Notes under the pieces: generated by a model | Told to the model about the DNA's origin: nothing | Database searches by the model: none | What the model saw: only the letters and a program-made list of their open reading frames with translations | Shown: positions 30,201 through 57,653 of the stretch, one piece after another | How the letters are laid out: each line of letters begins with the position of its first letter | Position numbering within the stretch: the first letter of the stretch is position 1 | Made by a program: the position numbers and the translations under genes | Assembly (NCBI RefSeq): GCF_009914755.1 | Contig: NC_060937.1 | Origin: the human T2T-CHM13v2.0 reference genome, Homo sapiens | Strand: one strand, 5' to 3' | DNA length: 64,000 nt

Positions 30201-31719
30201 TGTATTCACTGGGAAACACTAAAAAATTCAAAAAAGAAAATAAAGTGTAATTCCACCACTCAGGGTAAGCCCTATTAACACCTTGGTACATACCCTTTAA
30301 GTGTGGGTGGTTTTAATAACACGACATCATTGTCACCAAGACACTTCATCCACTGTTTCATTTCTGTGATCACAGTAACATGCAGGGCACTCTAGTCTCT
30401 ACAATTTTTAAAACACTGGATTTCCATTTGCAATCTGTGGCAGGCTAAACCCTTAATTAGTAACAGCAGGTGCTGAAGTGCTTAAAGCAAATCACTCCTA
30501 CATTTTAGTGAGTTGTTATTTATGTCACTCTTATCACCAGGAGCAGAGCAGCCCACAATCAGCAGCAGCTGCAGGGCTGAGGCTCTCATGGGGCAATTGC
30601 GGGCCTTCAGTTTCCTCAGGAGTCAAGGGATTTAAACAGCTCTATCTGGAGAAACTGAGCAAGCGGCTTTTCTCACAAAGGCACACAAAGGGGTCAGTTG
30701 GGGCTTCACACTCTCTTAAGGGGAGGAAACCACAATTATTTATGTTCTACTAGATAATCAGATATTTCATTCAGAATTCATTTTGTGCAGCTTTGCCTAA
30801 TCCTGCACCATAAAATACTATTTTTCCTTAGAGTTTAAATAGGTTCCTCTATCTTGAAAAATTAAGAAAACCTGTTAAACGGGTCCACTTCAAAGTGATC
30901 CTAATTCCATTTCAGAAAGCTTGCTCTTAAGAAGAGATGAAATTAAGTTTGCAGAGCATTCTAAGAGGTAATAAGACTACACTCAGCACAAAAGATTGCT
31001 CTCTCCTATTTATCAAGATGCGGAAAATACTAAGATGAAAGCCCCCCTCCCCAGCTGGCCTTGCTTTCTGGCGTGGGGAGGTTTCGCCTACGCTTTCCTC
31101 CTAGTGGGGTAATCATCACCTTTCACTTTTATCGAAAACAGTTACAAAAGTGATTTTGTGCTTTGCTAAAAGGGCTGAAAAATAAGGTGCTTTCAAGAGA
31201 GGCCAGCGGGCTTTTTGATTTCCATGGAGGTGGCAAATGCGTGCAGAGCAGGTCCCGTTCCCACCACGGCTTTGGTTCCACACAAAGTTGCCTGTTTGGG
31301 GGGAAGCTCCACGAAGGACACTTTGGGATGCCACGCCAGTGCCCAAACTGAAAATAAGCATGCCCAGCTGTGCAGAGACGGGAATGCAGGAAAATAACGC
31401 GCCTAAATAAACTTTCTTATATTAAAAATAAAAATCATCGTTCACATTTTTGTCCAGCCACCAGCCCCAGAGTGCCTACTAAATTGTGTTTCTAGGTAGC
31501 TAACTTCACAAGTGGCCTTCTGCTCGAAAAATAAGTTGGGGAAACGTCAAGGGCTAAGATTTTTTTTTTTTTTTTTTAGTTGGAGAATTCACATTTATTG
31601 AGTAATTGATGTGATGCAATCTGCAATTTTTGGATTCAAGATAATTTTCACTGAACATTTCATCAGTTAATGGGTTTTCTTTATAACACGATTCAGTTCT
31701 CTTTCTTCCTTGGCCTCCT

Positions 31720-47363: not shown

Positions 47364-48615
47364 TATAATTATTATTTAAATTATTAATTTTCTACTAATG
47401 CTGAGAAAGATGGTATAAGACATAAAAATCTAATGTTTGTCTAATGATATGGGTCAAGGCACCTAATATTAATAGTTAGCTAAAGAATAGGGGAAAATAT
47501 TTACAAATAATTCCAATGTAGAATGATTTATAGAAAGTTACTTTATATTTTTCCACATTACATTTTAAAGTTACTTAAAATATTTTTGGCTACATGAAAT
47601 TTATATATTCTTCCTTAAGGAAAGAAAATAAACTTTTATAGAAGAAGTTACAGAAATGCACTTGGTATTCATTACTGGTGATACATAATAGAATTTAGGT
47701 TTAGTGCCAGATATAGGGTGAGAACACCATTAGCTGGAAACTATACTTACCTCTAGGTGATTTCTATAAATCTGAAGTCCAATGATTTCACTTATTAAAG
47801 TGGACAAATAAGTTATATGTTCCGGACCTAGGTGACAGTTACAAAAACTATCTAAAAGACAAAAACAGTCTAACCATGAATGAGAGGATTCAATACATTT
47901 TATAAATGCCTCAAAAGAACTCTTTTCTTATCCTCATTCTATCTCCACATCTGGACTTGAGTATTGTGAACAATTGCAGTTTGGTCTAAAGAATTAGTCC
48001 ATCACTATGAATTACCACACATCACAAAATGACTTAAATCACCAGTGTTAAGTAAGTGGTAGGACCTTATGATTGAATAAATATTGGTTTTCTAGAATTG
48101 TAAAAACCTCAGAAAGTGTATAGTTTTGCTTCAATCATTTTACAGGTGTGGGAAATAAACATGAGGTGAAGGGACTTGCCCAAGATGTCCTAAGTTCATG
48201 GCAGAGTGGAGACTACAAACAAGTTTATTTAAGATTGAAGGTTGTTCTACGACACCATAATATTTCAAGTCAAAACTTAAAATGGACTTGATTTTCGGCT
48301 TTGTTTAAACCTGCAATTTAAAAAACTGAGCAAGATCCAGCCCAAAATGGCAAAAAGGTTTTATGAATACACACTTTTTGCTAACAGTCAACTAGAAACC
48401 AAATAGAATAGCAACGTTACTATCAGAGCAGATCATGGGTATATTATTGAAAGCAAGTGTAATGATGCCAGCCTTCAGATTCCCTAGGATATTTTAAAAC
48501 TCTCAAGCACTTCTATTACATAGTTTAGGGTCACTGGAGAAAATTACTTTTATGCAGACAAAGGAACACACGTCTGGAAAAGGAACTAAAGAAAAATGTG
48601 GCAGTTCTTATCTAT

Positions 48616-48621
48616 TTTATT
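48616..48621 (-). terminator. Candidate polyadenylation signal AATAAA for the CCDC169 terminal exon
   Basis: TTTATT on + strand, about 90 nt 3' of the stop codon. Confidence 0.6.
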
Positions 48622-48713
48622 CCCTGAAGAAATGTGCTGACCATTAACTTTATAACTTGAATATTATAAATGGAAAAAAAAAGGAAGAAATAGAAATCCA
48701 TCCAGTTCTGGAA

Positions 48714-48833
<120 letters not shown>

Positions 48834-50030
48834 TCATAATTTTTCAGTCACCATTATGTACAACAAAAACATTATAGGCCACACAGGAAGAAATGTATAT
48901 TGCACCTTGTTCCCCCCAACAGACCTTCACACAGAAACCTTCCTGTGAATAGTTTCTGCTTACAGTGCAAATCTTAGGCAGCCTTCTGTTATAGCACATC
49001 ATCTCCACCGCTACAGAGGCATACAGCTTAAGGGCAGGTAATTCAAAGGCTGGAAGCAGCATGTCAGGTGCCCTAATGTGGAAAGTTCTGTCTAATGAGG
49101 ATAAGACAGATCCGTGAATTCCTTTTCTTAGATTTCCATGAGATCCTTTTTCCATTAATGACTTATGTGGCACTAAAAAGCCAACCTTCCTTACACTCTG
49201 ACTTGAGAGAGTTAAAGGCCACTTCAATTTCCTAAAAACTTTCTTAGGGGGTGATGGCAGCAAAATGACAGAGTCATTTAAAGTCTTTCTCTATTAAGTC
49301 TAACATCTGGACTTCCTCAGGGAAAGTGTTTATTTGTTGCTTTTTTTCTTGTATAAGAGCCATGTTTTCTTGTCTCTTCTCATATATTGTAATTTTGTTT
49401 TGAAAACTGGATGTTTTAAAATATGTAACATGTAAGAACTTGTCATTTTCTCTTCATTAAAATGAAGGATAAAATTCTCTCCTCCATAAAAGTGATGACA
49501 AATTGGCAATATGGTTAGAAGCAACTTTATCAAAACCCTGGAAATTAACGAAAGTGTTGCAACAATCCTGGAGAATTTATAAAATAACAACAACAGCAAC
49601 AAACGGCTGAAACTTCGAACACTGAGCTTTGTAGCATTTTAACTTGCCCTATGCCTATCCACTGTTCCCCTGACTTTCATCCCCAGCTCCATGGTAGCCT
49701 TGAAAACCAACAGCGCACAATTGCAGTGAAAACTCAGTAGCCTGGTGGACACCATAAGAGGTGGAATAGGGTTGGAGATCCTTTAACACCTATTTCATTC
49801 CAAGAGGAATTTCATTATTTAAACAGTCTGGTGATTACTTGAAAGACCACTTACAAAGCTATCTTTATTTGACCTGACATGGAGATGGTCCAGTGTAAAT
49901 AGCCTTTTCCCTAGGGGCATTTGCTGGAACAATAAGAAACCACTGTTTAATTTCAGAGCTGCCAGAGGTAGTAGATAACAATTGAGGCAAAAAATAGGCT
50001 AACCAGGAAGCTTAAAAGGAAAAGCTGAGA

Positions 50031-50407
50031 GGCCAGGCTCAGTGGCTCTCACCTGTAATCCCAGCACTTTGGGAGGCTAAGGGAGGCAGGTGGATCACTT
50101 GAGGCCAGGAGTTTGAGACCAGCCTGGCCAGTATGATGAAACCCCACTTGTACTAAGAATACAAAAAAAGATGAGCCGAGATTGCGCCACTGCAGTCCGC
50201 AGTCCGGCCTGGGCGACAGAGCGAGACTCCGTCTCAAAAAAAAAAAAGAATACAAAAAAAGAAAAAAAAATTAGCCAGGCATGGTGCTGCATGCCTATAA
50301 TCTCAGCTAGTTGGGAGGCTGAGACATGAGAATCACTTGAGCCTGAGGCAGAGGTTGCAGTGAGCCGAGATCAGCCTAGGCAACAGAGTGAGACTCTGTC
50401 TCTAAAA
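50031..50407 (+). mobile_element. AluS host element
   Basis: TSD AAAAGGAAAAGCTGAGA (50014-50030, 50408-50424). Confidence 0.9.
50172..50245 (+). mobile_element. 5'-truncated AluYb8-lineage insertion nested in the host Alu's middle A-rich linker
   Basis: Yb diagnostic duplication GCAGTCCGCAGTCCGGCC; TSD AAGAATACAAAAAAAGA (50155-50171, 50246-50262). Confidence 0.92.
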
Positions 50408-51302
50408 AAAAGGAAAAGCTGAGAAATGAGTGTTAATAAGCTCCATTATATTTCTTGGAATCTAGAAGCCCATACACATGTGTAACTGTGGGTATGCATA
50501 GGACTGTGTGCATACTCAGGAAAGGCCTGAAAAGGCCCTAAGCTCTTGCCTCTGGCTGACCTTGAGGCTCTGCACAAGCAGGAAGTAAAGAATAAGGTAG
50601 AGTTGTAATTTGCCTGGCCGACTGTTGAAGGCATGCTCCAACACACACACACAGAGCCCATCAGCAAAGGCTAGGAGATTTATTGATGCTAGGCATTTAA
50701 ATAAATCTGTTCAATCATTAGCTGACCCCTAAGCTAACTCAGCAGAGACTTCAGTGTCCACCCCAACAAAGAATACAGATTTTACATAATTATTTTAGAA
50801 AAGTCACTAAACAAGCAGCAGCAAAAACAGTGACAACAACAAACCCTGGGGAGGGGAAAGAAACTAATATACAGAGTGGCCATGTTACATATTTTAAAAC
50901 ATCCAGTTTTCAAAACAAAATTACAATATATGAGAAGAGACAAGAAAACATGGCTCTTATACAAGAAAAAAAGCAACAAATAAACACTTTCCCTGAGGAA
51001 GTCCAGATGTTAGACTTAATAGAGAAAGACTTTAAATCTACTATTTTAAAGAACTAAAGGAAATCATATCTATAGAGGAAATTATGAGAATGATGTCTCA
51101 CCAAATCAAGAATACTAATAAGAGATAGAAATTATTTAAAAAGAACCAAATAGGCATTCTGGAGTTGAAAAAGAATATAAATGCAATGAAGAATTCACTA
51201 GAAGAGCTCAACGGCAGATTGGAGCAGACACAAGAGTCAATGAAGTTAAAGATTTGTCAATTAAGATCGTCTGGTTTGAGCAAGAGATAACAAAGAATAA
51301 AG

Positions 51303-51838
51303 TGAAGGAAATTAAAATATTTTCCCCCAAAATATATTTCTTTGACATATTTTAAAATGTCAGTCTCTTGGCCAGCAGGCAGAAATGGCCTTACAAAGCT
51401 GTCTTAAGTGGGAAAGTTTGCATTAATGTGGAGAATCTCCACTAATGCAACTGTGCCACCTCTCCTTTCTATGCTTTTCCCCAGATCTAGGAGAGACTGA
51501 AAGTCTGACACATTTAAAAGTCTGAGAAGAAACATTTACCATCTATTCTCTCTGAGGGTGGCTTCATCTACATAAAAAGTCCACCTTTGTTCGCCAAACC
51601 TTTTCTCCCTGCTCCCAAAACCTTTTTTAAAATCAGAATCTAAGCCCCCACTCTTTCTGTAACCTCAAAATGGTATATAAGTTTCTATAACTCATTGGGA
51701 AGTTGGGTCTTCATTCTGAAGACTCCCATGTATACATATTAAATAAATCTGTGTGCCTTTTCTCCTATTAATAAATATGATTCATGTCTGTGATTTTTAG
51801 CAAACTTCAGGGGCGAAGAGCCTATGGCGGCCCCCACT
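51303..51838 (+). mobile_element. MER34/MER39-group ERV1 solo LTR
   Basis: tgaaggaaattaaaatattttcccccaaaatat start; 4-bp TSD AAAG. Confidence 0.75.
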
Positions 51839-54348
51839 AAAGAAAACTGAACAGTCTCAGAGACCTGTAAAACACTATCAACTATACCAACATATGTATA
51901 ATGAGTGTCCCAGAAGGAGAGGGGAAAGAAAAGGACAGATAGAATATTTGAAAAATAATAGCTAAAAATTTCCCAAATTTCATTAAAAATATTGATCTAC
52001 AAATTTAAGAAGCCTAACAAATTCCAAGATGAATATCCAGACACATCATAATAAAACTATCAAAAGCCAATACAAACAGGGAATCTTGAAAGCAGCTAGA
52101 ATGAAGCAACTCACTCTGTAAAAGGGATCTTCAATAGGAGTAACAACTGATTTCTCATCAGAAACTATGAAGGCCTGAAGACAGGGAGATGAAATATTTA
52201 AAGTGCTATAAGGAAAAAGACTTTCAACTAAGAATTCTATATGCAACAAAACTATCCTTCTAAAATAAAAGAAAAATTAAACATTTCCAGATAAGCAAAA
52301 ACAGAAGGAATTAATCATCAGCAAACCTGCCCTATAAAAAAATAGTAGAGACTTTTGTGTTGAAATAAAAGGACATTTGATAGAAGTGTAAATTCACATG
52401 AAGAAATAAAGAAAACTGGCAAAGATAACTACATAGGTAAACATAAAAATAGGATAAATGTAGTTTTTGTTTGTAATTCTTCTTTTTAAATCTCCTAACT
52501 GATTAAGAAAATAACTGCATGAGCAATAATTGTAAATCTGTTGATGGAAACAAAATGTATAAACTTGTAATTTGTATGACAATAACAGCACAAAGAAGGT
52601 GAAGGGAATGGAGCTACATAGGAAAGAACTTTTGGTACACTATTGAAATTAAGTTGTTTTGAACCTAAAGTAGATTGTTATAAATTAATATCTTAATTGT
52701 AATTCCCAGGCAACCACTGAGACCAAGACCAGATGGCTTCGCTGGTAAATTCTACCACATATTAAATCATACATATATAAAACCAATCCTTCACACGCAC
52801 TTCATAAAAATGAAATAGGAGAGAACACCTTCCAACTTATTTTATGAGGCAAATATTACTCTTATTTTCTTCTTTCTGCTTATTTGGGGTTTAGTTTGCT
52901 CCTCTTTTTCAAGTTTCTTAAGGTAAAAGATTTGATTTTTTATTTGAAATGATTTATTTAAAAATATATTTACGGCCATAAATTTCTCTCTAAGCACTAA
53001 ACCTGATAAAGAAAATCTATGAACAAAATTTACAGCTAACATTATATTTAATGTAAAAACCAAAAGCTTTCTCTCTAAGATAAGGAACAAGTTAAGGATG
53101 TTCACTATTACCACTTCTATTCAACATTGTATAGGAGGTTCCAGCCAGGGCAATTAGGCAAGAAAAATAGATAAAAGGCATCCAAATTAGAAGAAAAAAA
53201 AAAGAAGTAAAACAATCTCTATTTAGGTGACATGTTCTTATATATAGAAAATACTAAGGCATACACATTCACATACAGACACAGACACATACATGCATTT
53301 ATGAGATCTAATAAGTTCCTCAGGGTTTCTGGATTTAAGATCAATATGCAAAAATCAACTGTATTTCTAGACACCAGCAATATACAGTCCTAAAATGAAA
53401 TTTAAAACTTAATTCTGTTTCAAACTGCATCAAAAAGAATACAGTTTTAGGAATAAATTTAGCCAAAGAATTGCAAGATTTGTACACTAAAATCTATAAA
53501 ATATCTATGAAAGAAATTAAAGAAGATCTAAATGAATAGAAAGAAATTCATGTTCTTGGATTAGAAGACTTAATATTGTTAAGATGGCAACACTACCCAA
53601 AGTGATCTACAGATTCAACATACTCTCTCCATCAAAACACCAGCTATATTTTGTGAAGAAATTGACAAGTGGATCCTAAATCCACATGGAAATAAAAGGG
53701 ACTCTGAATAACCAAAACAATCTTGAAAAAGAACAATAAAATTGGAGTACTCGCACTTCTTGATTTTAAACTCACTAAAAAGTTAGTCATCCAGACAGTA
53801 TGGTATTGGCATAAGGATAGAGTTATAGATCAATGAAACACAACTGGGAGTCTAAGAGTAAACCCATATGTTACGGTCAATTGTTTTTTTACAAGAGTGC
53901 CAAGAGCATTTAATTGGCAAAGGATAGTGTCTTCAACCTATGGTGTTAGGACAACTGAATAAATACAGGCAAAAGAGTGAAACTGGACGCCTACCTCACA
54001 TCATATACAAAAATGAACTCAAAATGGGTGAAAAGGGAGCTAAAACTATAAAACTCTTAGAAGAAAACATAGGTTAGGCAATGACTTCTTATGTATGACA
54101 CCTAACACACAAGCAAGCAAGAAAAAGTAGATGATGGTCTTTATCAAAATTGAGAACTTTTGTGTTTCTAAAGATATCATCAAGAAAATAAAAATACCAT
54201 CCATAGAATGGGAAAAAATTATAAATCTTTTATCTGATAAGGTCTCATACTCAGAATATAAAATGCTCTCAATGCAATATAATAGAGACAAACAAACCAA
54301 TTTAATAATAGGCAAAGGACTTGAATAGACATTTCTCCAAAGAAGATA

Positions 54349-54682
54349 CAGTTGTCCCTCTACATCCAAGGGTGATTGGTTCCAGGACCCCCATGGATAC
54401 CAAAATTCACAGATGCTCAAGTCCCTTACATAAAACGGTGTCATATTTCCACATAATGTACACACATAATCCAGTATACTTTAAATCATCTCTAGATTAC
54501 TTAACATTAGATTACATTAACACAAAAGTAAATGCTATATAAATAGATGTTATACTTTGTTGGGTTTTTAAAAATTATTTATTATTATTGTATTATTATT
54601 ATTATTATTTTCCCCAATTTTTTTTGATCCACAGTTGGTTGAATTCATGGATGCAGAATTTGTGGATATGGAAGGCTATCTG
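54349..54682. mobile_element. MER2 (TcMar-Tigger)
   Basis: cagttgtccctc...ggctatctg termini with TA flanks. Confidence 0.85.
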
Positions 54683-55236
54683 TATAGAAATGGCCAACAA
54701 GTACAAGAAAAGATTTCAACATCATTAGTCATTAGGAAAGTGCAAATCAAAACCACAGTAAGATATCACTTCACATCCACTAGGATGGTTAAATTTTTTT
54801 AAATAAAGGACAACATGTGTTGATAAGGATGTGGAGAAATTGGAACCCTGATACACAGCTAATGGGAATATAAAATGGTACAGCCACTATAGAAAATAGC
54901 TTGGCAGTTCCTCAAAAAGATAAACAAAATGGAATTAACCCAGCAATTCCACTTCTAGGCATGCACCAAAGAGAATTAAAAATATTTGCACACAAAACTT
55001 GTACAGGGATGTTCATAGTAGCATTATTCATAATAGTGAAGAGGTGTAAACATGTAAATGTTCATCAGCTGATGATTCGGTAAATAAAATGTGGCATATC
55101 CAAAAACTGGAATATTACTCTGTCACAGAAAGGAATAAGGAATTCGTATATGTTCCAACATGGATGAACCATGAAAATGTTATATTAAGCAGCAGAAGGT
55201 AAACACCCAAATTCACATATTGTATGCTCCCATTTA

Positions 55237-55575
55237 CAGTTGGAAATGTGCCACATAACATTTCAGTCAGCAATGGACTGCATATATGACAGTATTCCTG
55301 TAAGATTATAATACTGTATTTGTACTGTACCTTTTCTATGTTTAGATACACAAATACTTACCATTGTGTTACAATTGTCAGAGTGTTCCCTACAGTAATA
55401 TGCTGTACAGGTTTGTAACTTAGGAGCAAGAGGCTATACCATATAGCTAGGTGTGAAGTAGGATCTACCATCTAGGTTTTTGTAAGCGCACTCTGATGTT
55501 TGCACAATGACAAAATTGCCTTATGACACACTTCTCACAACATGTCCCCATCATTAAGGGACACATGACTGACTG
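55237..55575. mobile_element. Tigger3a/MER7A-like
   Basis: ...gtaagattataatactgta...gacacatgactg. Confidence 0.75.
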
Positions 55576-56468
55576 TATATGAAATAACAAGACCAGAGAA
55601 AACCATAAAAACAGAAAGCAGATTAGTAATTGCCAGGAGTTTAGTGGAAGGGGGTTTGGGAACTAACTGCTCATTCATACAGGCTTTCTTTTTGGGGTGA
55701 TGAAAATGTTCTGGAATCAGTTAGTGGTGATGCTTGCATGACCCCATGAATATACGAAAAATCACTGAGTTGTACACTTTATTATTTTTATTTTAAAAAA
55801 GTTTTTAAATGGGGTCTGGCTCTGTTGCCCAAGCTGCAATGCAGTGGCACGAACATAGCTCACGGCAGCCTTCAACTCCTGGGCTCAAGTGATTGTCCTG
55901 CCTTGGCCTTCCAAAGTGCTAAGGATACAGAGCTGTAGGCTAAAAGGATAATTTTTTTGGTATGTGAATAATATCTCAATTAAAAAATTTTTTTAAATGT
56001 GCTTTGGGAATAATCCATTTCCTGTTAAAATTTTCTTTAGTTTATTAATCATGTTTAAAAATGATTTCTTCTGGTGAAATATGGAATTAACCACAATCAT
56101 TCAATTATTATGTCTAATTAATATAGCTCATTATAGATATTTATTATTTATAGTACTAAATGATTTTCTATTACACTAAGGATGTTTTGAGTAGCTTCCA
56201 AAATATGGCCCATTTCTAAAAGATCTAACTAACATGATGACACAAGTGTCTGAATAATAACTAACTAATGACACTAATGATGAAGCTGAGGTACTTCACT
56301 GGTAAAAGATATTTAATCACTGTCTTTTAGAGCAGTGTTTTCCAAACTGCAGAATGCAACTCATTAGTGGATTGATTTACTGAATTACAATAGCAATATA
56401 AAAATAACAGAAAAGGAAACAGAACAGAAGAGGAAAAAGAACATATATTAATAAAAAGAACAGAAAAG

Positions 56469-56790
56469 GGGCCAGGTGCAGTGATTCATGCCTGTAATCC
56501 CAGCACTTTAGGAGGCCAAGGTGGGAGATTGCTTGAGCCCAGGAGATTAATACCAGCCTGAAAAAACATGGCAAGACCCTGTCCATATTCTCTACAGAAA
56601 ATCAAAAAATGAGCTGGACATGGTGGCTCATGCCTATAGTCCTAGCTACTCAGGAGGCTGAGGCAGGGGGATCTCTTGAGCCTGGGAGTTTAGGGTTAAA
56701 GTGAGCAATCATTGTACCACTGCACTGTAGCTGGGGCAACAGCACAAGACCTGTCTCTTTAAAAAAAAGAAAAAAAAAAAAAGAAAAAGA
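56469..56790 (+). mobile_element. AluJ
   Basis: Diverged Alu dimer with A-tail. Confidence 0.85.
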
Positions 56791-57318
56791 AGTATCAATA
56801 TGCATCACACATAGTAAGAGAAAATATTCTTTCATAAACTGTAAAATATGTGAATATATATGTGGGTATAGGGATCACAATATGGTGTCAGTCATGGTCA
56901 ACACAGTTTGGAAACCATTCTATGCTCCTGAGTATTATGATTTTTAAATAAATAATAGTGGTTAAGCCTCCAGCAAGTTTATGTTATTAATAGCAAAACA
57001 GACACTTGCAGTTCCAAATTATTGTCATATGTATTTTTCTGTCCTCACAAATCAATACATTGTTACTCTGCTGATTCTTTATATTCAGTAAAGCACTATA
57101 GTAATGATAATAGTTAGTGTTTGTTGAATTAGGGATTTTTAAAAATAATCTCTAATTCTCATACCAATCATTCATTTTGGGTTTCATCTCTTCATCTTAT
57201 GGGGGAGAAAATGGAATCTGAGAGTGGTTACTTATATAAAGTCACATTAAATAATAAGAAATGGAGGCAAAAATTGATTGGTCTATCTGCTCCAAAGTCA
57301 GTGCCGATTTTCATTTAC

Positions 57319-57653
57319 ACTTGTCCCCCCTTTATCCATGGTTTTACTTTCCAGTTTCAGTTTCCTGTGGTCAGCCATGGTCCCAAAATAGGTGATTATG
57401 GTACAATAAGCTATTTTGAGAGAGAGAGAGACACCACATTCATATAACTTTTATTACAGTATGCTGTTATAATTAAGTTGTATTATTAGTTACTGCTAAT
57501 CTCTTCCTATGCCTAAATTGTAAATTTAATTTTATCATAGATATCTATGTATGTAAAAAAACTTAGCATACACAGGGTGCAGTACTATCCATGGTTTTGG
57601 TATCCACTGGTGGTCTTTGGAATGTATCTCTCTTGGGTAAGAGAGGACTACTG
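57319..57653. mobile_element. MER44A-like (Tigger7)
   Basis: cccccctttatccatggttttac...ggactactgta. Confidence 0.75.

What the first reader, a model, noticed from the sequence alone, without database searches (positions are those of the whole stretch)
49262..51037. Perfect 157-bp inverted duplication inside an ancient L1, with template-switch scars, 0.46 kb before the CCDC169 last exon
Seen: 49276-49432 is the exact reverse complement of 50881-51037. The right arm is in normal L1 context; the left arm interrupts the L1 5' UTR. The junctions carry short fold-backs: AAATGAC-aga-GTCATTT (49263-49279), TGTCATTTT (49441-49449, reverse complement of 49262-49270) and CTTCATT-aa-AATGAAG (49452-49467). 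Established: such templated insertions typify replication template switching or polymerase-theta end joining; inverted repeats promote inversion and gene conversion. Inference: 100% identity in a heavily decayed L1 means a recent event or ongoing arm homogenisation. The pre-mRNA would form a perfect 157-bp stem looping out 1448 nt near the acceptor that competes with the read-through exon, and the spacer may be a polymorphic inversion.
Basis: partly seen in the sequence, partly recalled or inferred. Interest (0 to 1): 0.7.

Follow-up and report, generated by a model that had tools for sequence, protein, structure and literature searches.

The report
Perfect inverted repeat in CCDC169 intron
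A 157-base piece of a long-dead L1 retrotransposon was copied backwards into the same element 1.4 kb away, inside an intron of human CCDC169; it looks like an ordinary one-off repair or replication slip that left a perfect hairpin-forming repeat with no shown function.

Summary
Window 49276-49432 is the exact reverse complement of 50881-51037: 157 nt, 100% identity, 1448-nt spacer. It is the only exact inverted match longer than 32 nt in the 64-kb window.

In the whole genome only these two copies are identical. Other copies of this L1 family that cover more than 120 nt of the arm are at most 77% identical. The right arm lies in unbroken L1 context.

The arm edges are sharp, with no target-site duplication and no poly(A). 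Zero differences over 157 CpG-free sites bounds the age at roughly 10-24 My.

The small fold-backs at the junctions exist, and each is rare at random positions (P 0.004-0.009, post hoc). That fits snap-back priming.

Best reading: a single, evolutionarily recent, templated inverted insertion made by break repair or a replication template switch, and neutral. The transcript would fold into the 157-bp stem. A splicing effect, an inversion polymorphism and RNA editing are all untested. Ape orthologues and other human assemblies could not be reached. This is a new member of a known kind, of low to moderate interest.

The parts
49276..49432 (-). Left arm: the inserted 157-nt copy, L1 sequence in reverse orientation
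   Evidence: Exact reverse complement of 50881-51037. Absent at this position from 9 of 9 paralogous L1 copies.
50881..51037 (+). Right arm: the donor, in collinear L1 context near the 5' UTR / ORF1 start
   Evidence: 23 of 28 paralog loci align in a single piece through both of its edges. L1 ORF1 domain traces lie downstream in the same orientation.
49250..49275 (+). First ~25 nt of the L1 5' end, left of the insert. It ends ...ACAGAGT plus one extra C at 49275.
   Evidence: Aligns to the shared 5'-terminal block of 9 of 9 paralogs, whose own upstream flanks are unrelated to each other. 48814-49275 as a whole matches nothing else in the genome.
49433..49442 (+). Continuation of the L1 5' end right of the insert: T, then AAGAACTTG
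   Evidence: Aligns to the paralog block that directly follows ...AGAGT.
49443..49469 (+). Extra 27-nt block absent from the paralogs. It holds TCATTTT and the palindrome CTTCATT-aa-AATGAAG.
   Evidence: Missing in 9 of 9 paralogs. 17 of 22 identical to the following L1 sequence; 17 of 2000 shuffles score as well.
49470..50027 (+). L1 5' UTR, part of the spacer
   Evidence: 65-72% identity to dispersed paralogs.
50028..50424 (+). Alu in the spacer, carrying a nested short Alu 3' fragment at 50172-50245
   Evidence: 17-nt flanking direct repeats D3 and D4. Metazoa_SRP-like matches at 50032-50237 and 50274-50404.
50425..50880 (+). L1 5' UTR, the rest of the spacer, running straight into the right arm
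   Evidence: alignments, for example L019 at 50438-51262.
49263..49279 (.). 7-bp hairpin with a 3-nt loop spanning the left junction. Its 3' half is GT from the L1, the orphan C, and ATTT from the arm.
   Evidence: A stem of at least 7 bp spans a random position in 187 of 20000 trials.
49441..49449 (.). 9-nt reverse complement of 49262-49270. The pair brackets the insert and, without it, would form a 9-bp stem with a 13-nt loop.
   Evidence: An equal or longer pair in the same geometry occurs in 19 of 5000 random trials. No paralog in the alignment shows this pair, by my own reading of the alignment.
50871..50877 (+). ACAGAGT, a direct repeat of 49268-49274. It lies 3 nt left of the right arm; the other copy lies 1 nt left of the left arm.
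   Evidence: 30 of 5000 random trials give a repeat of at least 7 nt. Its role is unexplained.
48296..48813 (-). CCDC169 last exon (context). Both arms lie in the intron upstream of it.
   Evidence: Hub annotation. An AG acceptor is seen at 48814-48815 on the - strand.

Best explanation
This is a single templated insertion, recent on an evolutionary scale, made by DNA synthesis during break repair or at a disturbed replication fork.

Proposed steps (all inferred):
1. A break or stalled 3' end arose about 25 nt inside the 5' end of an old, decayed L1.
2. The free end ...ACAGAGT may first have snapped back on AAATGAC just upstream and added C-A-T-T-T.
3. It then paired, through ATTT or through almost no homology, with the opposite strand 1.6 kb downstream in the same L1.
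4. It copied about 153-157 nt accurately, let go, and was joined to the other end with one spare T.

In the four-point notation for template switches this is a 1-4-3-2 event, but over kilobase range. The product is a neutral, small inverted dispersed duplication in the last intron of CCDC169. Its only predictable consequence is a perfect 157-bp duplex in the pre-mRNA.

Shown: the structure, the direction of copying, the sharp edges, and the lack of a target-site duplication or poly(A).
Inferred: the order of steps, the enzymes, the age and the neutrality.
For: - Only the two arms are 100% identical out of 40 scored genome matches. Other copies covering more than 120 nt of the arm are at most 77% identical, so the copy was made locally from the already decayed element.
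- The right arm is collinear with 23 of 28 paralogs. The left arm interrupts an otherwise unbroken alignment to 9 of 9 paralogs.
- No inverted homology continues beyond either edge: 6 of 6 flank tests were not significant.
- No target-site duplication of 5 nt or more and no A-tract at either end.
- A junction-spanning 7-bp hairpin accounts for the orphan C and gives 4 nt of microhomology (187 of 20000 random positions do as well).
- Snap-back priming from 2-4-nt inverted repeats that creates new microhomology is the SD-MMEJ model (PMC5728401, passages).
- The 1-4-3-2 pattern is the commonest template-switch topology and generates single inverted repeats (PMC7954356, passages).
- Inverted and dispersed duplications in human genomes are attributed mainly to MMBIR (PMC9510932, passages).
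Against: - If the pre-insertion sequence was ...GAGTC|TAAGA..., both junctions are blunt with no microhomology. That fits ligation of a ready-made fragment better than template switching.
- The pre-insertion sequence is inferred from paralogs only 65-72% identical, not from an orthologous empty site.
- The junction statistics are post hoc.
- The donor distance (1.45-1.76 kb) and copied length (157 nt) lie far outside the +/-100-nt range in which short-range template switches were catalogued (PMC7954356). They also exceed typical polymerase-theta inserts, which are under 25 bp with about 1 error per 30 bp (PMC5068794). At that error rate, 157 clean bases have probability 0.005.
- No orthologue or second human assembly was examined, so the age and even fixation are unknown.
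Confidence: 0.55

Rival explanations
1. Patch capture at a double-strand break by end joining (a class 2 templated sequence insertion). A ready-made 157-bp fragment was ligated into the break in either orientation. The fragment could be a cDNA of the nascent CCDC169 intron RNA, or a displaced DNA fragment from the neighbourhood.
For: - No target-site duplication, no poly(A), and at most 1 spare nucleotide at each junction.
- The size falls within the 73-414 bp range (median 191 bp) of experimental templated insertions. Those have end-joining-type junctions and appear to derive from RNA (PMC5110952, sections 4 and 9 and passages).
- By the hub annotation the donor is transcribed as part of the same intron, so its RNA would be physically near the break (inference).
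Against: - Described templated insertions come from distant loci, not nearby sequence (PMC5110952, section 4). Here the donor is 1.45 kb away.
- The junction hairpin and the flanking 9-nt inverted pair are left unexplained.
- There is no direct evidence for an RNA intermediate.
Confidence: 0.25
2. An old inverted L1 fragment, for example from twin priming or an early rearrangement at L1 insertion, whose arms are kept identical by repeated gene conversion.
For: Inverted repeats can exchange sequence by conversion. 100% identity does not by itself distinguish youth from homogenisation.
Against: - The edges are sharp and no decayed homology lies beyond them.
- The left arm has forward-oriented L1 5'-end sequence on both sides. 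That is not the layout of twin priming, where the inverted piece forms the 5' end and adjoins the upstream part of the element (recalled from Ostertag and Kazazian 2001, not read here).
- The host L1 is 23-35% different from its paralogs. Keeping 157 nt perfect over that time with a 1.4-kb spacer would need very frequent conversion.
Confidence: 0.05
3. Whatever its origin, the repeat is maintained because the RNA hairpin does something. It might shift terminal-exon choice between CCDC169 and the CCDC169-SOHLH2 read-through, or serve as an editing or small-RNA source in germ cells.
For: - A perfect 157-bp duplex of about -258 kcal/mol is predicted in the transcript strand, 463 nt upstream of the acceptor.
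- Highly paired dsRNAs are a small minority of predicted human dsRNAs: 31,017 of 5,134,754 are more than 96% paired (PMC11838218, section 10).
Against: - No data on splicing, editing or small RNAs were available here.
- The arms do not overlap the acceptor, polypyrimidine tract or exon.
- Both arms lie in one intron and are removed by splicing.
- Perfect identity is what a young neutral duplicate looks like, so it is no sign of selection.
- No paper links CCDC169 with 'inverted repeat' or 'A-to-I'.
Confidence: 0.05
4. Assembly artefact, or a variant private to the sequenced cell line.
For: Only one assembly was examined. Small inverted duplications can arise as chimeric-read artefacts.
Against: The insert sits in otherwise unique sequence and has clean junctions. 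By the hub's statement the assembly is a telomere-to-telomere one. None of this could be tested here.
Confidence: 0.03

Closest known systems
Short-range template switch events in the four-point model (Loytynoja and Goldman; Walker et al., PMC7954356)
   Same: Same topology, 1-4-3-2: the strand leaves at one point, copies a nearby stretch in reverse-complement orientation, and returns to the next base, creating a single inverted repeat.
   Different: Those events were sought within +/-100 nt, are typically tens of nucleotides long, and often perfect a pre-existing near-repeat. Here 157 nt were copied from 1.45-1.76 kb away into a site with no earlier homology to the donor.
Inverted or dispersed duplications among human complex structural variants, attributed to MMBIR/FoSTeS (PMC9510932, passages)
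   Same: A duplicated segment placed at a distance in inverted orientation, with the donor left intact.
   Different: Microhomology at the junctions is 0-1 nt in the simplest reading and 4 nt only under the snap-back reading. The event is much smaller than most catalogued variants.
Class 2 templated sequence insertions (PMC5110952)
   Same: Size (157 bp against 73-414 bp), no target-site duplication, no poly(A), end-joining-like junctions, and a transcribed donor.
   Different: Their donors are distant loci, often on other chromosomes. Here the donor is in the same intron, 1.45 kb away. Polymorphism is unknown.
Polymerase-theta / SD-MMEJ templated inserts (PMC5068794, PMC5728401)
   Same: Reverse-complement copying by snap-back from a very short primer repeat fits the left junction (AAATGAC-aga-GTCATTT).
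   Different: Such inserts are mostly under 25 bp, map within about 20 bp of the break, and are error-prone (about 1 in 30 bp). A clean 157-nt copy from more than 1 kb away is atypical; 2-3% of inserts there came from more than 1 kb.
L1 twin priming inversions (recalled, not read here)
   Same: An inverted L1 piece near the 5' end of an L1.
   Different: Twin priming acts at the time of insertion, so its arms would have decayed like the rest of the element. It also does not duplicate an internal piece into the intact 5' end. Both expectations fail here.

Membership tests
Four-point short-range template switch | The insert is a reverse-complement copy of nearby sequence, and the return point adjoins the departure point (pattern 1-4-3-2). 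| tested here: met
   the arm sits between adjacent L1 positions, and the donor lies downstream on the opposite strand.
Four-point short-range template switch | The template lies within tens to hundreds of nucleotides (search space +/-100 nt). | tested here: not met
   The donor is 1448-1761 nt away. The range is as stated in PMC7954356 (passages).
MMBIR/FoSTeS rearrangement | Microhomology at the breakpoint junctions (2-33 bp, as quoted in PMC9510932). | tested here: inconclusive
   0-1 nt if the arm was inserted blunt. 4 nt (ATTT) if the orphan C and ATTT came from snap-back. There is no orthologous empty site to decide.
Class 1 templated insertion / L1-mediated retrocopy | A target-site duplication of at least 5 bp and a poly(A) tail. 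| tested here: not met
   The longest flanking direct repeat next to both junctions is 3 nt, and the arm ends carry no A or T tract.
Class 2 templated sequence insertion | No target-site duplication or poly(A), and end-joining-type junctions. | tested here: met
Class 2 templated sequence insertion | The donor is a distant genomic region. | tested here: not met
   The donor is 1.45 kb away in the same intron. The definition is from PMC5110952, section 4.
Class 2 templated sequence insertion | The insertion is polymorphic among people. | not testable with these tools
   Only one human assembly is held.
Polymerase-theta templated insert | A short insert (mostly under 25 bp) templated within about 20 bp of the break, made by error-prone synthesis. 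| tested here: not met
   157 nt, more than 1.4 kb away, 0 errors. P = 0.005 at 1 error per 30 nt. Figures are from PMC5068794 (passages).
L1 twin-priming inversion | The inverted 5' segment was made at insertion, so it is as diverged as the rest of the element, and it forms the 5' end. | tested here: not met
   The arms are 100% identical while the element is 23-35% from its paralogs. Forward L1 5'-end sequence lies on both sides of the arm. The definition is recalled.
L1 (LINE-1) element as host | ORF1 domains and many dispersed copies with a common 5' end. | tested here: met
   - Transposase_22 (E 0.0034) and Tnp_22_dsRBD (E 0.0003) appear in order in one frame, both just under Pfam's cut-offs.
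- Weak RVT_1 match.
- 137 and 244 first-look candidates genome-wide.
- 12 of 43 non-self matches start at the same point.

The most novel reading that the evidence does not exclude
The insert is a hominid- or human-specific event that created, in one step, a perfect 157-bp intronic hairpin in a gene pair named for germ-cell function (by the hub's gene descriptions). The hairpin is biologically active: hyper-edited or diced in germ cells, or shifting the choice between the CCDC169 terminal exon and the CCDC169-SOHLH2 read-through. Alternatively, its arms flip the 1.4-kb spacer as a recurrent micro-inversion polymorphism. A further mechanistic possibility is that the donor was the nascent intron RNA of the same gene, which would be a natural case of transcript-templated break repair in cis.
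Probability: 0.06. Interest if true: 0.6.

Novelty: new member of a known kind. Interest (0 to 1): 0.25.

Why it matters
The locus is a clean natural example of a kilobase-range inverted templated insertion. Both junctions can be read against many paralogous copies of the host element. That makes it a useful single case for the gap between short-range template switches (tens of nucleotides) and large MMBIR rearrangements.

It also shows how a long perfect dsRNA-forming repeat can appear in a gene in a single step. It does not by itself change what is known about these mechanisms, and no effect on CCDC169 or SOHLH2 expression is shown.

Tried and rejected
- **Left arm outside the L1.** After I thought the arm lay 37 nt upstream of the L1's 5' boundary at 49470. 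I rejected this when the paralogs proved homologous to each other for about 40 nt beyond that point, and the window carried that block split around the arm.
- **Decayed homology beyond the arm edges.** None was found in 6 of 6 tests.
- **Source for the extra 27-nt block.** I found only 9-10-nt word matches of the kind expected by chance, plus a weak likeness to the following L1 sequence.
- **A 7-nt direct repeat as a target-site duplication.** GTCATTT (49273-49279 and 49442-49448) flanks a 169-nt unit. I judged this parse less likely, because the 9 nt it would count as inserted align to the L1 sequence expected at that place. It is not excluded.
- **A role for the direct ACAGAGT repeat.** I worked through template switches on either strand by hand. 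None gives the observed product.
- **Rfam.** Only Alu/SRP-like matches and sub-threshold noise over 48200-51400.
- **Pfam on open fragments.** Only a weak RVT_1 match and one spurious hit among 13 fragments. Read-through with X at the stops gave the ORF1 domains.
- **Literature.** No paper holds CCDC169 with 'inverted repeat' or with 'A-to-I'.
- **Unavailable resources.** No primate or second human assembly is reachable, so dating by orthologues, polymorphism and spacer inversion were not tested.
- **Correction.** The correct count is 12 of 43.

Full report
**1. The observation**

Window 49276-49432 is the exact reverse complement of 50881-51037: 157 nt, 100% complementary, 1448 nt between the arms. 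A 31-nt probe from the arm hits only these two places, with 0 matches expected in 100 shuffles. Among 109 exact inverted matches of at least 20 nt in the whole 64-kb window, the next longest is 32 nt and consists of Alu or poly-T sequence. The CCDC169 last-exon acceptor is at 48813 on the - strand (...TTTCAG|TGG), 463 nt from the left arm.

**2. What the arms are**

A search of the window's own genome with the arm scored 40 of 137 candidates. Two were 100% identical (the arms themselves). The other 38 were 70-83% identical, and at most 77% for those covering more than 120 nt. So one arm was copied from the other locally, after the element had decayed.

The host is an old L1:
- It has many dispersed copies at 65-77% identity.
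- Reading the decayed frames through with X at the stops gives Transposase_22 (E 0.0034, about 51.9-52.1 kb) and Tnp_22_dsRBD (E 0.0003, about 52.2-52.3 kb). They appear in the right order in one frame, both just under Pfam's cut-offs.
- There is a weak RVT_1 trace at 53211-53390.

**3. Which arm is the source**

23 of 28 paralog loci align in a single piece through both edges of the right arm (for example L019 at 50438-51262). It is therefore in its original place.

L1 homology in the spacer runs 49470-50027, then an Alu, then 50425 onwards. 12 of 43 non-self matches begin at window 49470-49472, so I first suspected that the left arm lay outside the L1. That was wrong:
- The nine paralogs sharing that boundary remain alike for about 40 nt further upstream, while their more distal flanks are unrelated.
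- The window carries the first part of that block, ending ...ACAGAGT at 49274, directly left of the arm. It carries the next part, AAGAACTTG at 49434-49442, directly right of it.
- With the arm removed, the window aligns collinearly to 9 of 9 paralogs.

Sequence further upstream (48814-49275 as a whole) matches nothing else in the genome.

**4. Junctions**

Relative to the paralogs there is one spare C before the arm (49275) and one spare T after it (49433). There is also a separate 27-nt block (49443-49469) that 9 of 9 paralogs lack. That block is only 17 of 22 identical to the L1 sequence that follows it, and 17 of 2000 shuffles score as well. If it is a duplication, it is older than the perfect insert.

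There is no target-site duplication (longest 3 nt) and no A or T tract at the arm ends. No inverted homology continues past either arm edge: in 6 of 6 tests, 269-1999 of 2000 shuffles reached the observed score.

Three small features near the junctions are each rare at random positions of this window:
- A 7-bp hairpin spanning the left junction: 187 of 20000.
- A 9-nt inverted pair bracketing the insert: 19 of 5000.
- A direct ACAGAGT just left of both arms: 30 of 5000.

These tests were chosen after seeing the features, so they count only as suggestive. The hairpin reading is attractive because it accounts for the orphan C. If ...ACAGAGT snapped back on AAATGAC, it would add C-A-T-T-T. The last four of those bases are also the first four of the arm, which gives a 4-nt microhomology with the donor. 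I found no role for ACAGAGT.

**5. Age**

The arms contain no CpG and are 29% G+C. With zero differences in 157 sites, the probability of no change falls to 0.05 at 19 My for 0.5e-9 substitutions per site per year. Across rates of 1.0e-9 to 0.4e-9 that limit is 9.5-24 My. At 6.5 My the probability is still 0.13-0.44.

The rates are recalled values, not outputs of any call. The event could be human-specific or shared by great apes. It is unlikely to predate the split from Old World monkeys. No orthologue could be examined.

**6. Mechanism**

The layout is a 1-4-3-2 template switch in the four-point notation, the pattern that yields single inverted repeats (PMC7954356, passages). It is, however, far beyond the +/-100-nt range searched there. 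Human inverted and dispersed duplications are generally ascribed to MMBIR (PMC9510932, passages). Snap-back priming from very short inverted repeats that creates new microhomology is the SD-MMEJ model (PMC5728401, passages).

Polymerase theta as the sole polymerase is unlikely. Its inserts are mostly under 25 bp, only 2-3% come from more than 1 kb away, and its templated extension errs about once in 30 bp (PMC5068794, passages). That gives P = 0.005 for 157 clean bases.

My best account (about 0.55) is a break or stalled end in the L1 5' end. A brief snap-back may have followed, then invasion of the opposite strand 1.6 kb away, accurate copying of about 155 nt, and end joining.

The main rival (about 0.25) is ligation of a ready-made patch, as in class 2 templated sequence insertions. 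Those share the size range (73-414 bp), the lack of a target-site duplication or poly(A), and end-joining junctions, and may come from RNA (PMC5110952, sections 4 and 9). Their donors, however, are distant loci.

An old repeat kept perfect by conversion, or a twin-priming product, does not fit the sharp edges or the forward L1 sequence on both sides of the arm.

**7. Consequences**

Folding the transcript (-) strand of 49200-51100 puts all 157 cognate pairs in the minimum-free-energy structure. The duplex alone is about -258 kcal/mol. Long perfect duplexes are expected ADAR substrates (established knowledge, not tested here). Highly paired dsRNAs are a small minority of predicted human dsRNAs, at 31,017 of 5,134,754 more than 96% paired, but still number in the tens of thousands. 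Intronic ones are removed by splicing (PMC11838218, section 10).

Both arms lie in one intron and do not touch the acceptor region. I found no evidence for or against an effect on the choice between the 48813 and 44901 acceptors, for editing, for small RNAs or for spacer inversion. No paper links CCDC169 with 'inverted repeat' or 'A-to-I'.

**8. Verdict**

It is best filed as a new example of a known class of mutation: a small inverted dispersed duplication, or kilobase-range templated insertion. Its main value is as a well-documented junction. The functional ideas remain speculation until orthologues, population assemblies and RNA data are examined.

Noticed in passing
window 50014-50424: The Alu in the spacer is flanked by a perfect 17-nt direct repeat (50014-50030 and 50408-50424). 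It carries a nested insertion at 50172-50245: a short Alu 3' fragment with an A-tail, which has its own perfect 17-nt direct repeat (50155-50171 and 50246-50262). Both therefore look like retrotransposition events with intact target-site duplications.
   Followed up: partly
window 51303-51837: A 535-nt stretch interrupts the L1 between 51302 and 51838. It belongs to a different, abundant dispersed repeat family: 1924 first-look candidates, and most of the 40 scored matches are 72-85% identical, many over nearly the full length. I did not identify the family.
   Followed up: partly
window 49443-49469: A 27-nt block is absent from 9 of 9 L1 paralogs. It contains a perfect 7+7 palindrome and TCATTTT, and is weakly similar to the next 29 nt of the L1. 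It could be an older tandem duplication or part of a complex event. This cannot be decided without an outgroup.
   Followed up: partly
window 49268-49274 and 50871-50877: The direct 7-mer ACAGAGT lies 1 nt left of the left arm and 3 nt left of the right arm. A repeat this long turns up in 30 of 5000 random trials. No template-switch path that I worked through uses it.
   Followed up: partly
window 49329-49334: The inserted arm places an AATAAA hexamer in the sense orientation of CCDC169, about 0.5 kb upstream of the last-exon acceptor. No annotated transcript ends there.
   Followed up: no
window 52300-53400: The L1 appears to have lost most of ORF2. The only reverse-transcriptase trace is the C-terminal part of RVT_1 at 53211-53390, about 0.9 kb after the ORF1 dsRBD-like domain. 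No endonuclease match was found in 52800-57500.
   Followed up: no
L038 (G000:C14:17467649-17471027), upstream of its L1 5' boundary: This paralog shows a tandem duplication of about 26 nt at the L1 5' terminus. The 5' end of this L1 family may be prone to local duplication.
   Followed up: no
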